Source: a virus
IMG/VR virus record: IMGVR_UViG_3300025736_000003
Direction: 5' to 3' (one strand)
Length of the DNA stretch: 25,992 bases
The translations under genes and the position numbers were made by a program. This document shows, piece by piece, positions 1-25,992 of this stretch. The notes beneath the pieces were generated by a model. It ran no database searches and had not been told where the DNA came from. It saw nothing but the letters and a program-made list of their open reading frames with translations. Position 1 is the stretch's first letter. Every line of letters begins with the position of its first letter.

Positions 1-127
1 TGTGTATAACCCTATATCCTTCCTTCTCAGCATACTTTTTACAATATTCCTTCTGCTGTGCTATATTTTGTTGCTCGTCGTCTGTAGAGATTCTAGTGTA
101 TATTATTGCTTCCTTAACCATAAATTA
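1..127. repeat. Terminal overlap identical to 25866-25992 (circular-assembly signature); contains the first 121 nt of the recombinase gene
   Basis: Base-by-base comparison of the first and last 127 nt shows 100% identity. Minus-strand translation of 121..1 gives MVKEAIIYTRISTDDEQQ..., the same N-terminus as the CDS at 25489..25986. Confidence 0.9.
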
Positions 128-217
128 AATTTCCACCCTTATATTCTACAAATTCATTTCTTTGTATCCAGCTAAGGATTTTATCTTTTGTTAATCTATC
201 CATTCGTCTTAGGTTTG
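119..217. repeat. 99-bp perfect direct repeat, copy 1 (starts at the recombinase start codon and covers its upstream region)
   Basis: The string cataaattaaatttccaccc...cattcgtcttaggtttg at 119-217 is identical to 734-832 (offset 615 bp). Confidence 0.9.
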
Positions 218-1682: not shown

Positions 1683-1975
1683 TTGACCTTGACCTTGACC
1701 ATGACCTTGACCATGACCCTGACCCTGACCCTGACCCTGACCCTGACCATGACCATGACCTTGACCCTGACCTTGACCCTGACCCTGACCATGACCCTGA
1801 CCCTGACCCTGACCCTGACCCTGACCCTGACCCTGACCATGACCCTGACCCTGACCCTGACCATGACCATGACCTTGACCCTGACCTTGACCCTGACCCT
1901 GACCATGACCCTGACCCTGACCCTGACCATGACCCTGACCATGACCTTGACCCTGACCTTGACCCTGACCATGAC
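1683..1975. repeat. Tandem hexanucleotide array (C/T/A)TGACC, about 49 units, with a higher-order duplication
   Basis: Direct reading shows a perfect 6-bp period with variation only at unit position 1. A block of about 65 bp recurs at roughly 1748 and 1863. All frames are open across it, which explains the four ORF-track entries here. Confidence 0.9.
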
Positions 1976-2009
1976 TTATCATAACACACACGAAGTATTA
2001 TTGCGTTAC

Positions 2010-2387
2010 TCATTTTTGCTCCGTTGGGAGTTTAAAGTCTATTTTAAATAAGTCTAACACAGCTTCTCTGTTTATTATAACTTCTGCATCTTTTGGATAT
2101 GGTTCTACTTCATCAAAACTTCCATTTTTACATGCACTTTGCCATCTACCCGTGTCTGGAATCCAACAAGCTTCAGCTAAAACTAATTCTTTATCACTTG
2201 ATTTGATTAATCTTCCTGTATAAATCATTGTTACTGTTCGGATTAAATAGGGTTCTCCTAATTGATAAAATCCTTTTGTTTCAGTCGTTGCTTTAGTTTT
2301 TTGTTTATCTAAAGTTTCTAGTTCTTTTTTAAGGTCTTCAAAGCTTAATTTGTTTAAATCTTTTTTTACTATTTTATTTACCTCCAT
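2010..2387 (-). CDS. Hypothetical protein (125 aa)
   Basis: ORF in the co-directional minus-strand block; no motif recognised. Confidence 0.45.
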   Translation of the reverse strand: MEVNKIVKKDLNKLSFEDLKKELETLDKQKTKATTETKGFYQLGEPYLIRTVTMIYTGRLIKSSDKELVLAEACWIPDTGRWQSACKNGSFDEVEPYPKDAEVIINREAVLDLFKIDFKLPTEQK

Positions 2388-2580
2388 TTAAATTTAGTTT
2401 CTGACTTTGGACATAACCCGTAAGGGTGTCAGCAGAGTGATTATCCGCATCCATAGGCATAACCGTTTTTTTGTCTTCCCCTACTTTGCTTCGTGACTCC
2501 AGTGAGTTTTGTAACGGCACTCCCTCACCTTTTTTACACTGCTGACTATTATTCGCATTATTAATACAGGGCGAATTCAT
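2374..2580 (-). CDS. Hypothetical small protein (68 aa)
   Basis: ORF overlapping the downstream gene by 14 nt; no motif recognised. Confidence 0.3.
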   Translation of the reverse strand: MNSPCINNANNSQQCKKGEGVPLQNSLESRSKVGEDKKTVMPMDADNHSADTLTGYVQSQKLNLNGGK

Positions 2581-2847
2581 CTTTCACTTCTCGGACATTC
2601 ATATTTAGTATCAAAACATGCTTCATATTTTCCTCTGTCTATACAAGCGTAACTATCACAAATTGGGCTTCTTTCTATTATCTCTTGTTGTTCCATGAGT
2701 ATAAAATGTGAGGTAGGTTACGACACGAACCCCACATCCTCTAAGAGAAAGGAAAAAGAGTTGCCGTAGTGACAAAACCTTTCTCTATGAGTATGAATCC
2801 CCTAAACCTGGGGGCGAGTTAAATAATTCTTTTTCCCTGTGGAGAGT

Positions 2848-3201
2848 TTATTCTTCTACAAGATTATACTTAGTTGTCTTAGCTGTGCCTGTTTGCATTA
2901 CCTTAAATTCTGTTTGGCCTTCTGATCCTTTTTTTATGATTTCTCCATAAATTGGATTCTTTGTATTCAACCACCAAACTAATTCAACTTCGCCAACTTT
3001 AACTGGTATAATTTTCTTAACAGCATTTGATTCTGGATCTACCCATTTTTGGAATGCTTCAGAAAAATCAATAATCATAGTAACTATTTTGTTTTCTTCT
3101 AATTTTAAAGATGGTTTTCTTTCGCCATCGAAAGCGTTTTCTTTTAGTGTTTCAGCTTCTTCTTTTAACCAGTCAGTTTTTTGTGTTTCAGTTTCTTCCA
3201 T
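2848..3201 (-). CDS. Hypothetical acidic protein (117 aa)
   Basis: ORF with a canonical AGGAGG 9 nt upstream of the ATG (minus-strand ctaaataaaggaggtaaaacaaATGG). Confidence 0.55.
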   Translation of the reverse strand: MEETETQKTDWLKEEAETLKENAFDGERKPSLKLEENKIVTMIIDFSEAFQKWVDPESNAVKKIIPVKVGEVELVWWLNTKNPIYGEIIKKGSEGQTEFKVMQTGTAKTTKYNLVEE

Positions 3202-3415
3202 TTGTTTTACCTCCTTTATTTAGATTATCAATAATCTCTTGTGCGGTTGTATAAGGTTCATAATATTCTCCAGTATCTTCCAGGGATTTCTTTAATGTGT
3301 ATTGGCATAATTCAATTACTTTCATACAACCATCTCCATCTTTGCTTCGTTATTTCTGATTGTCATTAATCCTTCTTGTCCTACAAAGATTTCGACACCT
3401 AACCCAACATCAACA

Positions 3416-3556
3416 TTACCTTCCATTTTTTTTCTCCTTATTTACAATATCAGCTATATCAACAAAATCACCAACTTCTAAACCAAAGTATTCTCTTGTC
3501 GATTTATCGAGGATGATAACTACTGACCCACCGAATTGTTTTATTTGTTTTATCAT
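3416..3556 (-). CDS. AbrB/SpoVT/MazE-like small DNA-binding protein (46 aa)
   Basis: Translation MIKQIKQFGGSVVIILDKSTREYFGLEVGDFVDIADIVNKEKKNGR has the GxxVVxIxK....GLxxGDxVxI pattern of swapped-hairpin AbrB-type domains. Below the ORF-track length cutoff; found by manual translation. Confidence 0.4.
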   Translation of the reverse strand: MIKQIKQFGGSVVIILDKSTREYFGLEVGDFVDIADIVNKEKKNGR

Positions 3557-3610
3557 ATTTTATTTAGTAATATTAACTATTTAAACCTTTCTATTTGGTG
3601 TTTGGTGTGT

Positions 3611-20787: not shown

Positions 20788-21137
20788 CAATAAACTCTAA
20801 CTAAAAATGTTTTCCCATAATCTTTCGTAACCCACGTTCTGGATTCTATTAAAGAATAAATGTTATCACCATCTTTTAATTTAATTCCTGTATCAATATC
20901 ATTTTTTTGTGGTTGTCTTGAAAAAGTATTTGGTGCTAATCCTAACTTAATCAAACCCACATAATTATTATTATCACCAATATCAATCTTTATATTATCA
21001 AAATCAACAACATCTTTATTATGCTCAACAGCACCATAGATTCCTACAAAAGAACCAATTAATAATACAGATAAGATAGCCGCCACCGAGTATAAAACTT
21101 TAGGGTTGTTTAATAATTGTTTTACTTCTTTATCCAT
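20787..21137 (-). CDS. Small membrane-anchored protein (about 116 aa)
   Basis: I placed the start at the ATG at 21137 (MDKEVKQLLNNPKVLYSVAAILSVLLIGSFVGIYGA, with an N-terminal TM or signal anchor). The track start at 21158 is a GTG lying inside the upstream repeats. Confidence 0.45.
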   Translation of the reverse strand: MDKEVKQLLNNPKVLYSVAAILSVLLIGSFVGIYGAVEHNKDVVDFDNIKIDIGDNNNYVGLIKLGLAPNTFSRQPQKNDIDTGIKLKDGDNIYSLIESRTWVTKDYGKTFLVRVY

Positions 21138-21139
21138 TT

Positions 21140-21175
21140 GCGTTACAGCGTTACGCACTTGCGTTACAGCGTTAC
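21140..21175. promoter_or_regulatory. Four GCGTTAC heptamers (two 15-bp direct repeats) immediately upstream of the ATG at 21137: candidate operator
   Basis: gcgttacagcgttac at 21140-21154 and again at 21161-21175, lying between a TATA-like AT box and the start codon. Confidence 0.45.
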
Positions 21176-21206
21176 ACTAATTAAGAATTATTACTATTTA
21201 AATATA

Positions 21207-21350: not shown

Positions 21351-21406
21351 ATCTTAATTAGCAAAGCAAAGTTTAAATACTTACTTACTTACTAATTAAT
21401 GTAAAG

Positions 21407-21859
21407 ATGGCGATGGATGATAATAAAGAAACTACATTTAATGAAGCAGTTTTGAAGATGCAAAGGATTCATATTCTACAACAAGAAATTAATCTACTTA
21501 GAATTAATCTACTTGCATGGAATCTTGAATATAGTAAATATAACTATGATGTTGTAATATCTGATTTAATAAGTTTATGTTATGAGGTTAGGCCTCTTAT
21601 GAAAATAGAGGAAAGAAATGAATTTAGTTTGCTTAAGGAGTTAGTTGATGATTTAATATCATACAAACCTATATTTAAAAAAATTAATACTTCTAATTTC
21701 TCAGGTAAAAATAATAATGAAAGTATCGACACTAATAATTGGAATATGTTAAGGGGTGTTATATTTAAATTTGAGGACTTTGCTAGGGATCAAGTTGATA
21801 TACATGGGCTGTCTGCTCCAAAGAAAAAGGATGCCTCTAGGGCTGCGGTTGATCTATAA
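21407..21859 (+). CDS. Hypothetical protein (150 aa)
   Basis: First gene of the plus-strand block; its stop overlaps the next start (TAATG). Confidence 0.5.
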   Translation: MAMDDNKETTFNEAVLKMQRIHILQQEINLLRINLLAWNLEYSKYNYDVVISDLISLCYEVRPLMKIEERNEFSLLKELVDDLISYKPIFKKINTSNFSGKNNNESIDTNNWNMLRGVIFKFEDFARDQVDIHGLSAPKKKDASRAAVDL

Positions 21860-24936: not shown

Positions 24937-24956
24937 AATTATTAGTAAGTTAGTTA

Positions 24957-25088
24957 CTATTTAAACTTTGTGTTATGTAGTTTTTTATCGAGTGCATTCT
25001 TTAATATTTTAGTTGATATAAAATAAATTAATATTTTTAAAGAGATAACCACTGCTGCTGCTAAAAATATTTTTATCCAAAAATTCAT
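24957..25088 (-). CDS. Tiny membrane protein (43 aa)
   Basis: Manual translation MNFWIKIFLAAAVVISLKILIYFISTKILKNALDKKLHNTKFK; ATGA overlap with the upstream ORF. Confidence 0.3.
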   Translation of the reverse strand: MNFWIKIFLAAAVVISLKILIYFISTKILKNALDKKLHNTKFK

Positions 25089-25430: not shown

Positions 25431-25488
25431 TTTAAGTAGTATTATGTTGGCATGGTTATATATAAAGTTGTTGTATTAAGGGAGGTCG

Positions 25489-25986
25489 CTAAATCTTCTT
25501 ATTTCTTCCAACCGCACCTTTCTTCCGGCCCTTATATTTCCCTTCAGCTTTTGCCCTAGCTATACCAACTGCTCTCTTTATATTAAGATTATCAATATAA
25601 AAAGCATTCATAGCCATTTTAATTCTAAAAGTGAACTTCCCCATAGGATTAACTAAATCAACCATCTCAGATAAAGATTTAATAATAATATTATTTTTAA
25701 TAACAAAACGTTCAAACCAAACGCTATCATAAAAATCTCTGCAAATCCTATCAACATCCTGAACAATTAAATGTACTGTTGGGTTCTCCTCTAAAAACTT
25801 TAACATCCTTTTACCGCCGCTTCGTTCACAAACATTTATCTTACCACTAATCTTATCTCCAATGGTGTGTATAACCCTATATCCTTCCTTCTCAGCATAC
25901 TTTTTACAATATTCCTTCTGCTGTGCTATATTTTGTTGCTCGTCGTCTGTAGAGATTCTAGTGTATATTATTGCTTCCTTAACCAT
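25489..25986 (-). CDS. Small serine recombinase (resolvase/invertase catalytic domain), 165 aa, no obvious C-terminal HTH
   Basis: N-terminal YTRISTDDEQ motif with Arg10/Ser12 arranged as in resolvase/invertase active sites, and a DRICRD motif around residue 80. The protein stops at ...KGRKKGAVGRNKKI, where the HTH domain of typical resolvases would start. Confidence 0.75.
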   Translation of the reverse strand: MVKEAIIYTRISTDDEQQNIAQQKEYCKKYAEKEGYRVIHTIGDKISGKINVCERSGGKRMLKFLEENPTVHLIVQDVDRICRDFYDSVWFERFVIKNNIIIKSLSEMVDLVNPMGKFTFRIKMAMNAFYIDNLNIKRAVGIARAKAEGKYKGRKKGAVGRNKKI

Positions 25987-25992
25987 AAATTA
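25866..25992. repeat. Terminal overlap, second copy (identical to 1-127)
   Basis: Identical 127-mer at both window ends, implying a unit length of 25,865 bp. Confidence 0.9.

What the first reader, a model, noticed from the sequence alone, without database searches (positions are those of the whole stretch)
2705..2830. GC-rich island with three hairpins in an AT-rich intergenic gap
A perfect 9-bp stem (agagaaagg at 2744-2752 pairing with cctttctct at 2778-2786) is flanked by a tgtgagg/ccccaca stem (about 2707-2736) and a cccc/gggg stem (about 2798-2814). In an AT-rich genome such islands are typical of structured RNAs or protein-binding DNA sites. I could not fit a tRNA cloverleaf.
Basis: seen in the sequence. 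Interest (0 to 1): 0.5.

Follow-up and report, generated by a model that had tools for sequence, protein, structure and literature searches.

The report
Hairpin-rich leader between two virus genes
The three hairpins are real and sit on the gene-sense strand in a 151-base gap of a small, probably archaeal, virus-like genome, where they most likely form a promoter plus a structured mRNA leader rather than a tRNA or any catalogued RNA.

Summary
All three stems exist at the stated coordinates. The stretch folds better than shuffles (z about -3) and has 43% G+C against 32% for the genome.

The true non-coding gap is 2697-2847. All flanking genes are on the - strand. It separates a 117-aa OB-fold gene from a 39-aa ORF that has no ribosome-binding site. 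ARAGORN and Rfam find nothing.

About 45 distinct related metagenome loci also have a gap right after this gene, and downstream homology ends there. Those gaps are built from units of one strong hairpin followed by T(T/C)ATA(A/C)TCA. The window has two such units.
- Hairpins 1 and 3 belong to families with compensatory changes.
- Hairpin 2 has no diverged relative, so it is untested.

The genome shows archaeal-type promoter geometry: TATA-like octamers lie exactly 21 nt before three ATGs. The gap's own box, TATTTAAC, lies 21 nt before the first motif copy.

Best reading (confidence about 0.45): a composite control region. It consists of a promoter, with hairpin 1 in the promoter spacer (where it may also form the 3' end of the upstream mRNA), and a leader of about 100 nt holding hairpins 2 and 3 that ends at the start codon.

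The function is inferred, not shown. Interest is moderate.

The parts
2848..3201 (-). Upstream neighbour: a 117-aa gene with a strong Shine-Dalgarno sequence (AAGGAGG). Predicted OB fold, possibly a single-strand-binding protein.
   Evidence: ORF list; upstream sequence. 117 homologues at 36-100% identity. AlphaFold2 model with pLDDT 78.5, a five-strand barrel plus helix. Only weak Foldseek matches to SSBs; the best is PRD1 P12 at E = 0.06. No Pfam or PHROG hit.
2818..2837 (-). Purine-rich tract plus A/T box, GGGAAAAAGAATTATTTAAC. It reads as a BRE/TATA-like promoter element. TATTTAAC (2825-2818) is a 7-of-8 match to the TATTTAAA/TTTAAATA octamers used elsewhere in this genome.
   Evidence: Sequence. 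The purine tract GRGAAAAAG (or a close variant) occurs in 25 of 52 related gaps, and an A/T-rich run directly precedes hairpin 1 in the 27 units measured. The distance from the A/T run to the first motif copy is 22.4 +/- 2.6 nt in those 27 loci and 22 nt here. Bona fide octamers lie 21 nt before three ATGs in the window.
2799..2814 (-). Hairpin 1: CCCC / AGGTTTA / GGGG. It lies between the A/T box and the first motif copy.
   Evidence: Folds. The family model R2 gives 31 matches in related loci. The six-pair stem is 94.5% paired; 5 pairs change on both sides; 0 of 500 shuffles reach the observed score. The window copy is only a weak match (11.1 bits, E = 0.078 in a 351-nt search) but sits in the expected place.
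2788..2796 (-). Motif copy 1, TCATACTCA. Predicted transcription start region. Its CTC pairs with GAG at 2739-2741 to extend hairpin 2.
   Evidence: Pattern search: the only two - strand matches in the window are both in this gap. The association of the motif with hairpins and start codons is shown.
2739..2791 (-). Hairpin 2. It has an outer CTC/GAG pairing, the perfect 9-bp stem (2786-2778 with 2752-2744), an inner hairpin (2775-2771 with 2765-2761) and the pyrimidine tract CTCTTTTTCC (2760-2751).
   Evidence: Folds. No diverged homologue. Only the 10-nt tract CTCTTTTTCC recurs, in the leaders of L052, L053, L063-L065, L067, L081, L119 and L120.
2705..2738 (-). Hairpin 3: GATGTGGGGT / 14-nt loop / ACCTCACATT. 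A 10-bp stem with two G-U pairs on the - strand.
   Evidence: Folds. Model R1 scores the window copy at 55.7 bits. There are 14 matches, 11 of them distinct. The 9 stem pairs are 97.9% paired; 5 change on both sides; 0 of 500 shuffles reach the observed score.
2696..2704 (-). Motif copy 2, TTATACTCA. Its last base is the A of the start codon ATG (2696-2694).
2577..2696 (-). 39-aa ORF with four cysteines and no Shine-Dalgarno sequence. Its stop codon overlaps the next start codon (ATGA).
   Evidence: Called as a gene in sister contigs. No Pfam or PHROG hit.
2374..2580 (-). 68-aa ORF. Its C-terminal 55 aa match the C-termini of 97-aa and 106-aa proteins elsewhere that have unrelated N-termini. 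This marks the right-hand side of a mosaic replacement.

Best explanation
The gap 2697-2847 is a composite control region read on the - strand. It belongs to a roughly 25.9-kb circular or terminally redundant virus- or plasmid-like element whose promoters look archaeal.

Proposed order of parts, 5' to 3' on the - strand:
1. Stop codon of the OB-fold gene.
2. A purine-rich tract plus an A/T box that acts as BRE/TATA.
3. Hairpin 1, which fills the 21-22-nt promoter spacer.
4. The first copy of the motif T(T/C)ATA(A/C)TCA, where transcription is predicted to start (about 2796-2792).
5. A leader of about 100 nt that begins with hairpin 2 as a 5'-proximal stem-loop and continues with hairpin 3.
6. 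A second motif copy fused to the ATG of a small ORF that has no ribosome-binding site.

Inferred roles:
- Hairpin 1 would be transcribed only on read-through RNA from the upstream gene, where it would form a 3'-end stem-loop. That makes the site a combined terminator/stabiliser and promoter.
- Hairpins 2 and 3 would act in cis on the downstream mRNA. They could protect its 5' end, or set how the A/U-rich start region is presented or processed.

Shown here: the stems, their conservation with compensatory changes (hairpins 1 and 3), the motif grammar and the spacing.

Inferred only: the transcription start, the archaeal host, and every functional role.
For: 1. The stems are real and fold better than shuffles.

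2. All neighbouring genes are on the - strand. Hairpin 3 is continuous only on that strand because of its two G-U pairs.

3. 76 metagenome loci carry a homologue of the 117-aa gene. Nearly all have a non-coding gap of 50-390 nt directly after it, followed by unrelated genes. Of about 89 right-hand ends of >=85% homology blocks, 26 fall within 0-25 nt of the gene's end.

4. The strict motif occurs 73 times on the + strand of these loci, which is the gene-sense strand there because they are oriented that way, and 18 times on the - strand. Of 54 distinct sense-strand copies:
- 44 have a strong hairpin ending 0-4 nt upstream, against 11% of random positions and 3 of 16 antisense copies;
- 31 have an ATG within 12 nt, against 29% of random positions.

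5. Compensatory changes: the hairpin 3 family has 5 of 9 pairs changed on both sides and is 97.9% paired. The hairpin 1 family has 5 of 6 pairs changed on both sides, 29 such cells, and is 94.5% paired. In both, 0 of 500 shuffles reach the observed covariation score, and slid registers collapse to 29-66% paired.

6. RNA-level signatures on the sense strand in the related gaps:
- 9 distinct C(UUCG)G contexts against 2 of the reverse complement;
- a pseudoknot-like pairing that is specific to each instance, in 26 neighbouring modules (permutation p < 2e-4).

7. Archaeal-type promoter geometry within the window. TTTAAATA/TATTTAAA octamers lie exactly 21 nt before the ATGs at 3556, 21350 and 24936. 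Others lie 27-28 nt before the ATGs at 21407 and 25430.

8. The gap's TATTTAAC lies 21 nt before motif copy 1. Across 27 loci the distance from the A/T box to the motif is 22.4 +/- 2.6 nt, even though stem and loop lengths vary and are inversely correlated (r = -0.45).

9. There is no Shine-Dalgarno sequence before the 39-aa ORF, while many other genes of the window have GGAGG-type sites.
Against: - There are no transcript data. The start site, the leader and the 3' end are all predictions.
- The window's hairpin 1 is only a marginal match to its family model.
- Hairpin 2 has no diverged relative. All six sister contigs are 100% identical across the gap. Its polypurine/polypyrimidine arms are low-complexity sequence.
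- The covariation alignments were fitted to the model structure, and the sequences are related to one another. Both inflate the shuffle statistics.
- Folding energies of the whole gaps show no strand bias across 41 loci (Wilcoxon p = 0.83).
- The archaeal host is inferred only from promoter-like geometry, from the near absence of phage-family hits and from one Helarchaeota-labelled homologue. The only genome hit is a 2.7-kb contig binned as Halanaerobiales, a bacterium.
- TTTAAATA is not over-represented in the window overall (12 found against 9.7 expected).
Confidence: 0.45

Rival explanations
1. A purely DNA-level promoter or operator. The inverted repeats would be binding sites for dimeric regulators, such as the small ribbon-helix-helix, AbrB-like or zinc-finger proteins of the element. 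Alternatively they would be cruciform-prone spacers that tune TBP/TFB/RNA polymerase access. No RNA structure would be needed.
For: - Hairpin 1 lies between the TATA-like box and the predicted start, so it would not be part of the downstream transcript.
- Small ORFs that look, by eye and without a family search, like DNA-binding proteins lie 21 nt after TATA octamers in the same genome.
- In one relative (L050) the loop of hairpin 3 holds a good TATA-like octamer 20 nt before the ATG.
Against: - The stems differ freely in sequence between relatives yet stay complementary. A protein site would be expected to keep its sequence.
- Loop lengths vary from 3 to 13 nt in hairpin 1 and from 14 to 24 nt in hairpin 3, so half-site spacing is not kept.
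- The TATA-like loop is not general: it scores 3-5 of 8 in the other hairpin 3 relatives with an ATG at that distance, and 4 of 8 in the window.
- UUCG tetraloops and G-U pairs on the sense strand point to RNA.
Confidence: 0.2
2. Non-functional debris of mosaic recombination. The gap would be a pile-up of fragments from other leaders, and hairpin 2 would be a chance pairing of polypurine and polypyrimidine runs.
For: - The gap and the 39-aa ORF replace a different leader and N-terminal domain found in L119 and L063.
- Homology between relatives ends at the stop codon.
- Hairpin 2 is unique to this strain.
- The window's hairpin 3 has two one-sided changes and a loop unlike that of its family.
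Against: - The gap is 100% identical in six contigs from five or six samples, whereas flanking regions show substitutions.
- The unit grammar (hairpin, motif, ATG) is kept intact.
- Both one-sided changes in hairpin 3 give G-U pairs on the sense strand, not mismatches.
- Fold z is about -3.
Confidence: 0.15
3. A stand-alone small RNA made from this gap and acting in trans. Examples would be a decoy that mimics a host RNA: a CRISPR repeat (RNA anti-CRISPR style), or the pyrimidine-rich 3' end of 16S rRNA.
For: - Hairpin 1 plus the motif gives weak, sub-threshold matches to CRISPR repeat models: 14.5 bits with E = 5.5 in the window and 16.5 bits with E = 1.1 in L060.
- Related gaps carry loops with GGTTACCTCCTTC and tracts with ATCACCTC, which resemble an anti-Shine-Dalgarno sequence.
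- Phage-encoded solitary repeat units that inhibit CRISPR-Cas are known (PMC10651486, abstract seen).
Against: - The CRISPR-model scores are far below the gathering thresholds (45-48 bits) and have chance-level E-values.
- The stems vary freely between relatives, whereas a mimic should copy one host repeat.
- No oligo-T or hairpin-plus-T terminator separates the hairpins from the ORF.
- The last hairpin ends 8 nt before the ATG.
Confidence: 0.1
4. Bacterial-type intrinsic terminators or an attenuator between two genes of a phage operon.
For: - G+C-rich stems sit directly after a gene's stop codon.
- One homologue lies on a contig binned as Halanaerobiales.
- Many genes in the window use GGAGG ribosome-binding sites.
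Against: - None of the three stems is followed by a T run, and the terminator scan finds nothing in the gap.
- The conserved 3' flank is T(T/C)ATA(A/C)TCA, not oligo-U.
- No sigma-70-type -35/-10 pair has workable spacing around the hairpins (and reading of the sequence).
Confidence: 0.05
5. A degenerate tRNA or tRNA-like element, for example the remnant of an integration site.
For: - Some related loci carry tRNA genes, or pieces resembling the 3' half of a tRNA, at the same position: L103, L090, L093, L109.
- L093 shares GAGAAAGGTT...CTCTTTTTTCC with hairpin 2.
- Hairpin 3 contains GGGGTTCG, which resembles the start of a T-arm.
Against: - ARAGORN and the Rfam tRNA model find nothing in the window.
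- There is no acceptor stem.
- The T-arm-like half has no matching 3' half.
Confidence: 0.03

Closest known systems
PeSL cassettes (promoter-early stem-loop) of T4-like phages. These are composite terminator/promoter motifs that flank variable small ORFs (PMC2839356, PMC4122927; abstract read).
   Same: - A short stem-loop is joined to a conserved promoter-like motif.
- The cassette sits between a conserved gene and a hypervariable set of small ORFs.
- It recurs in many related genomes with different downstream genes.
   Different: - The promoter-like parts here fit archaeal BRE/TATA geometry, not sigma-70.
- The stem lies inside the promoter spacer.
- Units can be stacked, with structured RNA modules between them.
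- Homology breakpoints are not enriched at the motif: 3% lie within 10 nt, against 5% at random. The recombination role that defines PeSLs is therefore not supported here.
Archaeal promoters of (near-)leaderless genes: BRE, TATA box about 26 nt upstream, A/T-rich proximal element, initiator. This description comes from established knowledge, not from a tool.
   Same: - An A-rich tract plus an A/T octamer lies 21-22 nt before a conserved A/T-rich motif.
- The spacing equals that of the TTTAAATA-to-ATG promoters in the same window.
   Different: - The spacer is a G+C-rich covarying hairpin, not A/T-rich sequence.
- In the window the predicted transcript is not leaderless. It carries a structured leader of about 100 nt.
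5'-terminal stem-loops that stabilise mRNAs, such as the ompA leader in E. coli or the aprE leader in B. subtilis (own knowledge).
   Same: Hairpin 2 would start about 5 nt from the predicted 5' end. Strong stems precede an unstructured A/U-rich start region.
   Different: No experimental 5' end is known here. The host is probably archaeal. The same 9-nt motif is repeated at the ATG, which those leaders lack.
Lambda-type nut sites: boxA plus the boxB hairpin, placed just after the first early gene (own knowledge).
   Same: A conserved linear box is followed by a short hairpin whose stem covaries between relatives, and the site lies directly after a small early gene.
   Different: There is no sequence similarity. 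The loops are not GNRA-like pentaloops. No N-like protein was identified, and the host is probably archaeal.

Membership tests
tRNA / tmRNA | Cloverleaf with acceptor stem, anticodon arm and T-arm | tested here: not met
   ARAGORN finds 0 genes in the window. There is no Rfam tRNA hit even at E <= 10.
Any Rfam 15 family (riboswitches, ribozymes, phage RNAs, sRNAs) | Covariance-model score at or above the family's gathering threshold | tested here: not met
   0 hits at gathering thresholds in the window. In 20 related loci the only hits are tRNAs elsewhere in the loci. The relaxed scans give only chance-level matches: the best bit score is 20.6 against a threshold of 37, and the best E-value is 0.73.
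Bacterial intrinsic (rho-independent) terminator | G+C-rich stem-loop followed directly by a run of U | tested here: not met
   The terminator scan finds no site in 2697-2847. The 3' flanks are ATTCATACTC, TAGAGG and TTATACTC.
Conserved structured RNA (general criterion) | Base pairs kept through compensatory changes in homologues | tested here: met
   Met for hairpin 3 and for the hairpin 1 family. Caveats: the alignments were fitted to the models, and the window's hairpin 1 is only a marginal member.
Conserved structured RNA (general criterion) | The same test applied to hairpin 2 (the perfect 9-bp stem) | tested here: inconclusive
   Only identical copies exist. No diverged homologue was found among 120 loci.
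PeSL-like composite terminator/promoter cassette | A stem-loop joined to a conserved promoter motif next to variable small ORFs | tested here: met
   Shown by the unit grammar, the variable downstream genes and the spacing. Promoter activity itself was not tested.
PeSL-like composite terminator/promoter cassette | Homology breakpoints (recombination junctions) fall at the cassette motif | tested here: not met
   Breakpoints are no closer to the motif than random positions. They cluster at the stop codon of the upstream gene instead. The test is crude because it relies on the ends of BLAST alignments.
Archaeal BRE/TATA promoter | A/T-rich octamer about 22-23 nt upstream of the transcription start, preceded by an A-rich BRE | tested here: inconclusive
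   The geometry fits: TATTTAAC, then 21 nt, then the motif; 22.4 +/- 2.6 nt across 27 loci; and the same spacing as the TTTAAATA-to-ATG pairs. No transcription start data exist and the host domain is not proven.
CRISPR repeat mimic (solitary repeat unit, RNA anti-CRISPR) | Sequence and structure similarity to the repeats of the host's CRISPR array | not testable with these tools
   The host and its arrays are unknown. Only sub-threshold matches to generic CRISPR repeat models were found.
Discrete small RNA gene | Its own promoter and terminator delimiting a short transcript | tested here: not met
   A promoter-like box is present, but there is no terminator-like signal before the ATG at 2696. 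The transcript itself cannot be tested here.

The most novel reading that the evidence does not exclude
The 'hairpin + T(T/C)ATA(A/C)TCA' units, together with the pseudoknot-like and anti-Shine-Dalgarno-like modules stacked between them in related elements, form an undescribed family of modular RNA leader elements in archaea-associated (possibly Asgard-associated) viruses or plasmids. Each hairpin would mark a processing or 5'-end-protection site. The motif would recreate the same short leader at every start codon that lacks a ribosome-binding site, so that translation of these small genes depends on the 5' end.
Probability: 0.2. Interest if true: 0.7.

Novelty: new variant of a known kind. 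Interest (0 to 1): 0.4.

Why it matters
If the reading is right, this gap is a compact example of how a poorly known group of virus-like elements organises the boundary between a conserved replication gene and a fast-changing set of small genes. These elements come from cold, saline and sediment habitats and are probably archaeal. The boundary would combine a promoter, a conserved hairpin and a reusable leader motif.

The related loci also contain at least one well-supported structured RNA module that is absent from Rfam. Little is known about cis-regulatory RNA and about translation starts without a Shine-Dalgarno sequence in archaeal viruses. A defined, recurrent sequence grammar with dozens of natural variants would give experimenters concrete constructs to test.

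For the window itself the element is a local regulatory feature, not a new machine.

Tried and rejected
1. **tRNA or a known RNA family.** ARAGORN and Rfam are negative.

2. **Similarity to known phages.** No match in the INPHARED phage records for 2000-3300.

3. **Covariation in close relatives.** Impossible: six sister contigs are 100% identical across 2300-3249.

4. **The gap in loci that share the 125-aa downstream gene.** No similar upstream sequence in 27 loci.

5. **Sigma-70 promoter or intrinsic terminator.** Nothing above chance in the gap. The -10-like motif lies too close to the ATG, and -35-like sequences are 21-22 nt away.

6. **Strand bias of whole-gap folding energy.** None (p = 0.83).

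7. **Long-range pairing of the purine box GGAAAAAGA with the tract TCTTTTTCC of hairpin 2.**
   - It is 9 bp in the window, reached by 1.5% of shuffles.
   - The box and the tract do not co-occur across loci (Fisher p = 0.74).
   - Not supported.

8. **The loop of hairpin 3 as a TATA box for a leaderless transcript.** Good only in L050, so not general and not met in the window.

9. **A read-through C-terminal extension of the 117-aa protein across the purine box.** The frame is not kept between loci (reading).

10. **Recombination junctions at the motif.** Not enriched.

11. **A virus-encoded RNA polymerase that might use hairpin promoters.** No DxDGD-type motif and no family hit in the large ORFs.

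12. **More relatives in IMG/VR and in reference genomes.** Only 2 loci and 1 locus were found.

14. **Resemblance of the hairpin 3 loop (GTCGTAAC...ACCTC) to the 3' end of 16S rRNA.** Judged compatible with chance. This is my own estimate, not a tool result.
Full report
**1. What is in the sequence**

On the - strand the gap reads, 5' to 3':
- stop codon of the upstream gene (2850-2848)
- ACTCTCCACA
- GGGAAAAAGAATTATTTAAC (2837-2818)
- TCG
- hairpin 1: CCCC-AGGTTTA-GGGG (2814-2799)
- AT
- TCATACTCA (2796-2788)
- hairpin 2 (2791-2739): the perfect 9-bp stem, an inner 5-bp hairpin and the pyrimidine tract CTCTTTTTCC
- hairpin 3: GATGTGGGGT, a 14-nt loop, ACCTCACATT (2738-2705)
- TTATACTCA (2704-2696), whose last base begins the start codon ATG

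The stretch 2700-2835 folds at -39.7 kcal/mol on the - strand (z = -3.17) and at -35.7 kcal/mol on the + strand (z = -2.92). Its G+C content is 42.9% against 32.1% for the window, which puts it in the top 4% of windows of that size.

**2. Context**

Bases 1-127 of the window repeat at 25866-25992. The window is thus a complete circular or terminally redundant element of 25,865 bp.

Genes recognised:
- a D5-like primase/helicase, a DNA methyltransferase and a serine recombinase
- large secreted proteins of the beta-helix and laminin-G type
- almost no match to phage protein families

Nearly identical contigs come from Ace Lake and other metagenomes.

Around the finding every gene is on the - strand. 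The true non-coding gap is 2697-2847. It lies between a 117-aa gene with a strong AAGGAGG site and a 39-aa cysteine-rich ORF that has no ribosome-binding site. That ORF is linked by an ATGA overlap to a 68-aa ORF, which in turn overlaps a 125-aa gene.

The 117-aa protein is predicted to be an OB fold (pLDDT 78.5). Its matches to single-strand-binding proteins are weak.

**3. Known families**

ARAGORN finds no tRNA. Rfam gives no hit at gathering thresholds and only chance-level matches in the relaxed scans. No intrinsic terminator or convincing sigma-70 promoter lies in the gap.

**4. Relatives**

Close relatives are useless for covariation: six contigs are 100% identical across 2300-3249.

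The 117-aa protein has 117 homologues. A scan of JGI metagenomes returned 76 loci. In nearly all of them the gene is followed by a non-coding gap of 50-390 nt and then by unrelated small genes. Blocks of >=85% identity between loci most often end within 25 nt of the gene's stop codon. The gap therefore marks the start of a hypervariable region.

The window's own gap and 39-aa ORF are one such replacement. The C-terminal 55 aa of the 68-aa ORF match the C-termini of longer proteins in L118 and L119, whose N-termini and leaders differ.

**5. A shared grammar**

The gaps differ in sequence but are built from the same kind of unit: a strong hairpin followed within 0-4 nt by T(T/C)ATA(A/C)TCA, or the variant TTTAAA(A/C/G)TCA.
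- The strict motif occurs 73 times on the + strand of the 76 loci, which is the gene-sense strand there because they are oriented that way, and 18 times on the - strand.
- Of 54 distinct sense-strand copies, 44 have such a hairpin. The figure is 11% at random positions and 3 of 16 for antisense copies.
- 31 of the 54 are followed by an ATG within 12 nt, against 29% at random.
- The last unit of each gap abuts a start codon that usually reads ATGGAA and lacks a Shine-Dalgarno sequence.
- The window has exactly two - strand copies of the motif. Both are in this gap, after hairpins 1 and 3.

**6. Conservation of the hairpins**

*Hairpin 3.* A covariance model found 14 copies, 11 of them distinct; the window scores 55.7 bits. 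The nine pairs are 97.9% paired. Five show changes on both sides. No shuffle of 500 reaches the observed score, and slid registers fall to 38-66% paired. The window's copy has two one-sided changes, and both give G-U pairs on the sense strand.

*Hairpin 1.* A model found 31 copies, 20 of them distinct. They are 94.5% paired. Five of six pairs change on both sides, giving 29 such cells, and 0 of 500 shuffles reach the observed score. The window's hairpin 1 has a different loop and is only a marginal match (11.1 bits), but it sits at the right place.

*Hairpin 2.* It has no diverged relative. Only its CTCTTTTTCC tract recurs, in another type of leader module.

*Caveat.* These alignments are fitted to the models and the sequences are related, so the shuffle counts overstate significance.

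**7. RNA or DNA?**

Folding energies of whole gaps show no strand bias. Three things point to sense-strand RNA:
- Hairpin 3 is continuous only on the - strand.
- The related gaps hold nine distinct C(UUCG)G contexts on the sense strand, against two of the reverse complement.
- A module common in relatives but absent from the window has the order CTCAYY, a hairpin, UCAUAAAAAUC, then a stem-loop whose loop is GRYGAG. The loop is complementary to that same instance's 5' strand far more than to other instances (mean 5.5 against 4.1 contiguous pairs; permutation p < 2e-4; 26 instances). This module has no Rfam match.

**8. Host type and promoter geometry**

Within the window, TTTAAATA or TATTTAAA lies exactly 21 nt upstream of the ATGs at 3556, 21350 and 24936. 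These start small ORFs that look like DNA-binding proteins. Similar octamers lie 27-28 nt upstream of the ATGs at 21407 and 25430. The three octamers preceded by an AAR tract all belong to this set.

From established knowledge of archaeal transcription, this is the geometry of BRE/TATA promoters of leaderless or near-leaderless genes. It does not fit bacterial -10 elements.

Other hints:
- One homologue comes from a MAG labelled Helarchaeota.
- Related contigs come from a sediment metagenome (Ga0114923) from which a different contig was reported as an element targeted by Asgard CRISPR spacers (10.1101/2021.07.29.453957, read). This is only a hint.
- The single genome hit is a short contig binned as Halanaerobiales.

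I put the chance of an archaeal host at about 0.8.

**9. The gap read with that geometry**

Directly after the stop codon, 25 of 52 related gaps have a purine tract of the type (G/A)GAAAAAG. In the 27 units measured an A/T-rich run, typically TTTATTATTAA, directly precedes hairpin 1, which is followed by the first motif copy.

The distance from the end of the A/T run to the motif is 22.4 +/- 2.6 nt in 27 loci. This holds although stems range from 4 to 9 bp and loops from 3 to 13 nt, and the two are inversely correlated.

In the window, TATTTAAC (2825-2818) is followed by 21 nt and then TCATACTCA. This is the same spacing as the three TATA-to-ATG pairs. The simplest reading is that the box is a promoter and the first motif copy marks the start of the transcript.

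It follows that:
- Hairpin 1 lies upstream of that start. It can be transcribed only on read-through RNA from the 117-aa gene, so it would be a 3'-end stem-loop embedded in a promoter spacer.
- Hairpin 2 begins about 5 nt from the predicted 5' end.
- Hairpin 3 ends 8 nt before the ATG.

In minimal relatives (L071, L066, L074, L098) the motif is followed by the ATG within 0-10 nt. The normal product there would be a short-leader mRNA. In the window and many other loci, structured modules lie between two motif copies.

**10. What remains open**

I could not show any of the following: why the same 9-nt motif recurs at the ATG, whether the long leaders are processed at the junction between hairpin and motif, or what the pyrimidine-rich, anti-Shine-Dalgarno-like tracts do.

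Three ideas failed their tests:
- Pairing of the purine box with the pyrimidine tract.
- A TATA box in the hairpin 3 loop.
- PeSL-like recombination at the motif.

**11. Verdict**

The finding is a real feature, and part of it is evolutionarily conserved. It is best explained as a composite promoter and structured-leader region at a mosaic boundary of a probably archaeal virus-like element (confidence about 0.45).

Rivals:
- a DNA-level operator (0.2)
- recombination debris (0.15)
- a trans-acting decoy RNA (0.1)
- bacterial terminators (0.05)
- a tRNA remnant (0.03)

It is not a member of any catalogued RNA family. The closest known analogue is the PeSL cassette of T4-like phages, but the feature that defines PeSLs, recombination at the cassette, was tested and not met. 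I rate it a new variant of a known kind, of moderate interest. The most interesting material, the pseudoknot module and the unit grammar, lies in the related loci rather than in the window.

Noticed in passing
window 1684-1975: A tandem array of 48.7 copies of the hexanucleotide TGACCC, with 58-62% G+C in a 32% genome. It lies inside the - strand ORF 2013-1678, which it turns into a run of (G/W/R)-S dipeptides. The array differs between otherwise near-identical contigs.
   Followed up: partly
window 1-127 and 25866-25992: An exact 127-nt terminal direct repeat. The window is a complete circular or terminally redundant element of 25,865 bp.
   Followed up: no
window 119-217 and 734-832: An exact 99-nt direct repeat, 615 nt apart, in the small-ORF region on the other side of the methyltransferase gene from the finding.
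   Followed up: no
window 3578-3585 (-), 21372-21379 (both directions), 24958-24965 (-), 25459-25466 (-): TTTAAATA, TATTTAAA or TTTATATA octamers lie exactly 21 nt (three cases) or 27-28 nt (two cases) upstream of ATGs of small ORFs without a Shine-Dalgarno sequence. This is archaeal-type promoter geometry. A 30-nt copy of one promoter is inverted at 21367-21396 and 24941-24970.
   Followed up: partly
window about 21130-21185 (- strand): Two direct copies of GTAACGCTGTAACGCAA lie between a TATA-like octamer (21195-21202) and a likely ATG near 21130. This may be a regulator binding site.
   Followed up: no
Related loci, e.g. L060 870-940, L104, L086, L095 (not in the window): A recurrent module of about 60-80 nt with the order CTCAYY, a variable hairpin (loop often containing ACCAA), UCAUAAAAAUC, then a stem-loop whose 6-7-nt loop (GRYGAG) is complementary to the CTCAYY of the same instance. 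There are 26 instances, permutation p < 2e-4, and no Rfam match. It is a candidate new pseudoknotted RNA motif.
   Followed up: partly
L090 about 1015-1050, L092 about 845-880; also L052, L056, L063-L065, L081 leaders: Hairpin loops read UAGGGUUACCUCCUUC, and single-stranded tracts read UAUCACCUCUUUUUCC. Both resemble the anti-Shine-Dalgarno 3' end of 16S rRNA. Their meaning is unknown.
   Followed up: no
window 2400-2560 (-), L118 2650-2800, L119 2610-2770: A stretch of about 165 nt (44-47% G+C) encodes the same 55-aa C-terminus in three proteins with unrelated N-termini. Non-synonymous codon differences outnumber synonymous ones (13 to 6 and 15 to 5). The conservation may therefore not be purely at the protein level.
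   Followed up: partly
L102 3159-3924, L103 714-1570, L090 915-992; L093 and L109 gaps: Some relatives carry tRNA gene clusters, or pieces resembling the 3' half of a tRNA (T-arm plus acceptor strand), in or just after the same gap.
   Followed up: no
window 2864-2872 (+ strand) and 2847-2874: The + strand also shows TTATACTTA preceded by a weak hairpin (TGTGGAG...TTCTACA). It overlaps the 3' end of the 117-aa gene. The hairpin 1 model scores it at 14.1 bits without the stem. This is probably chance.
   Followed up: no
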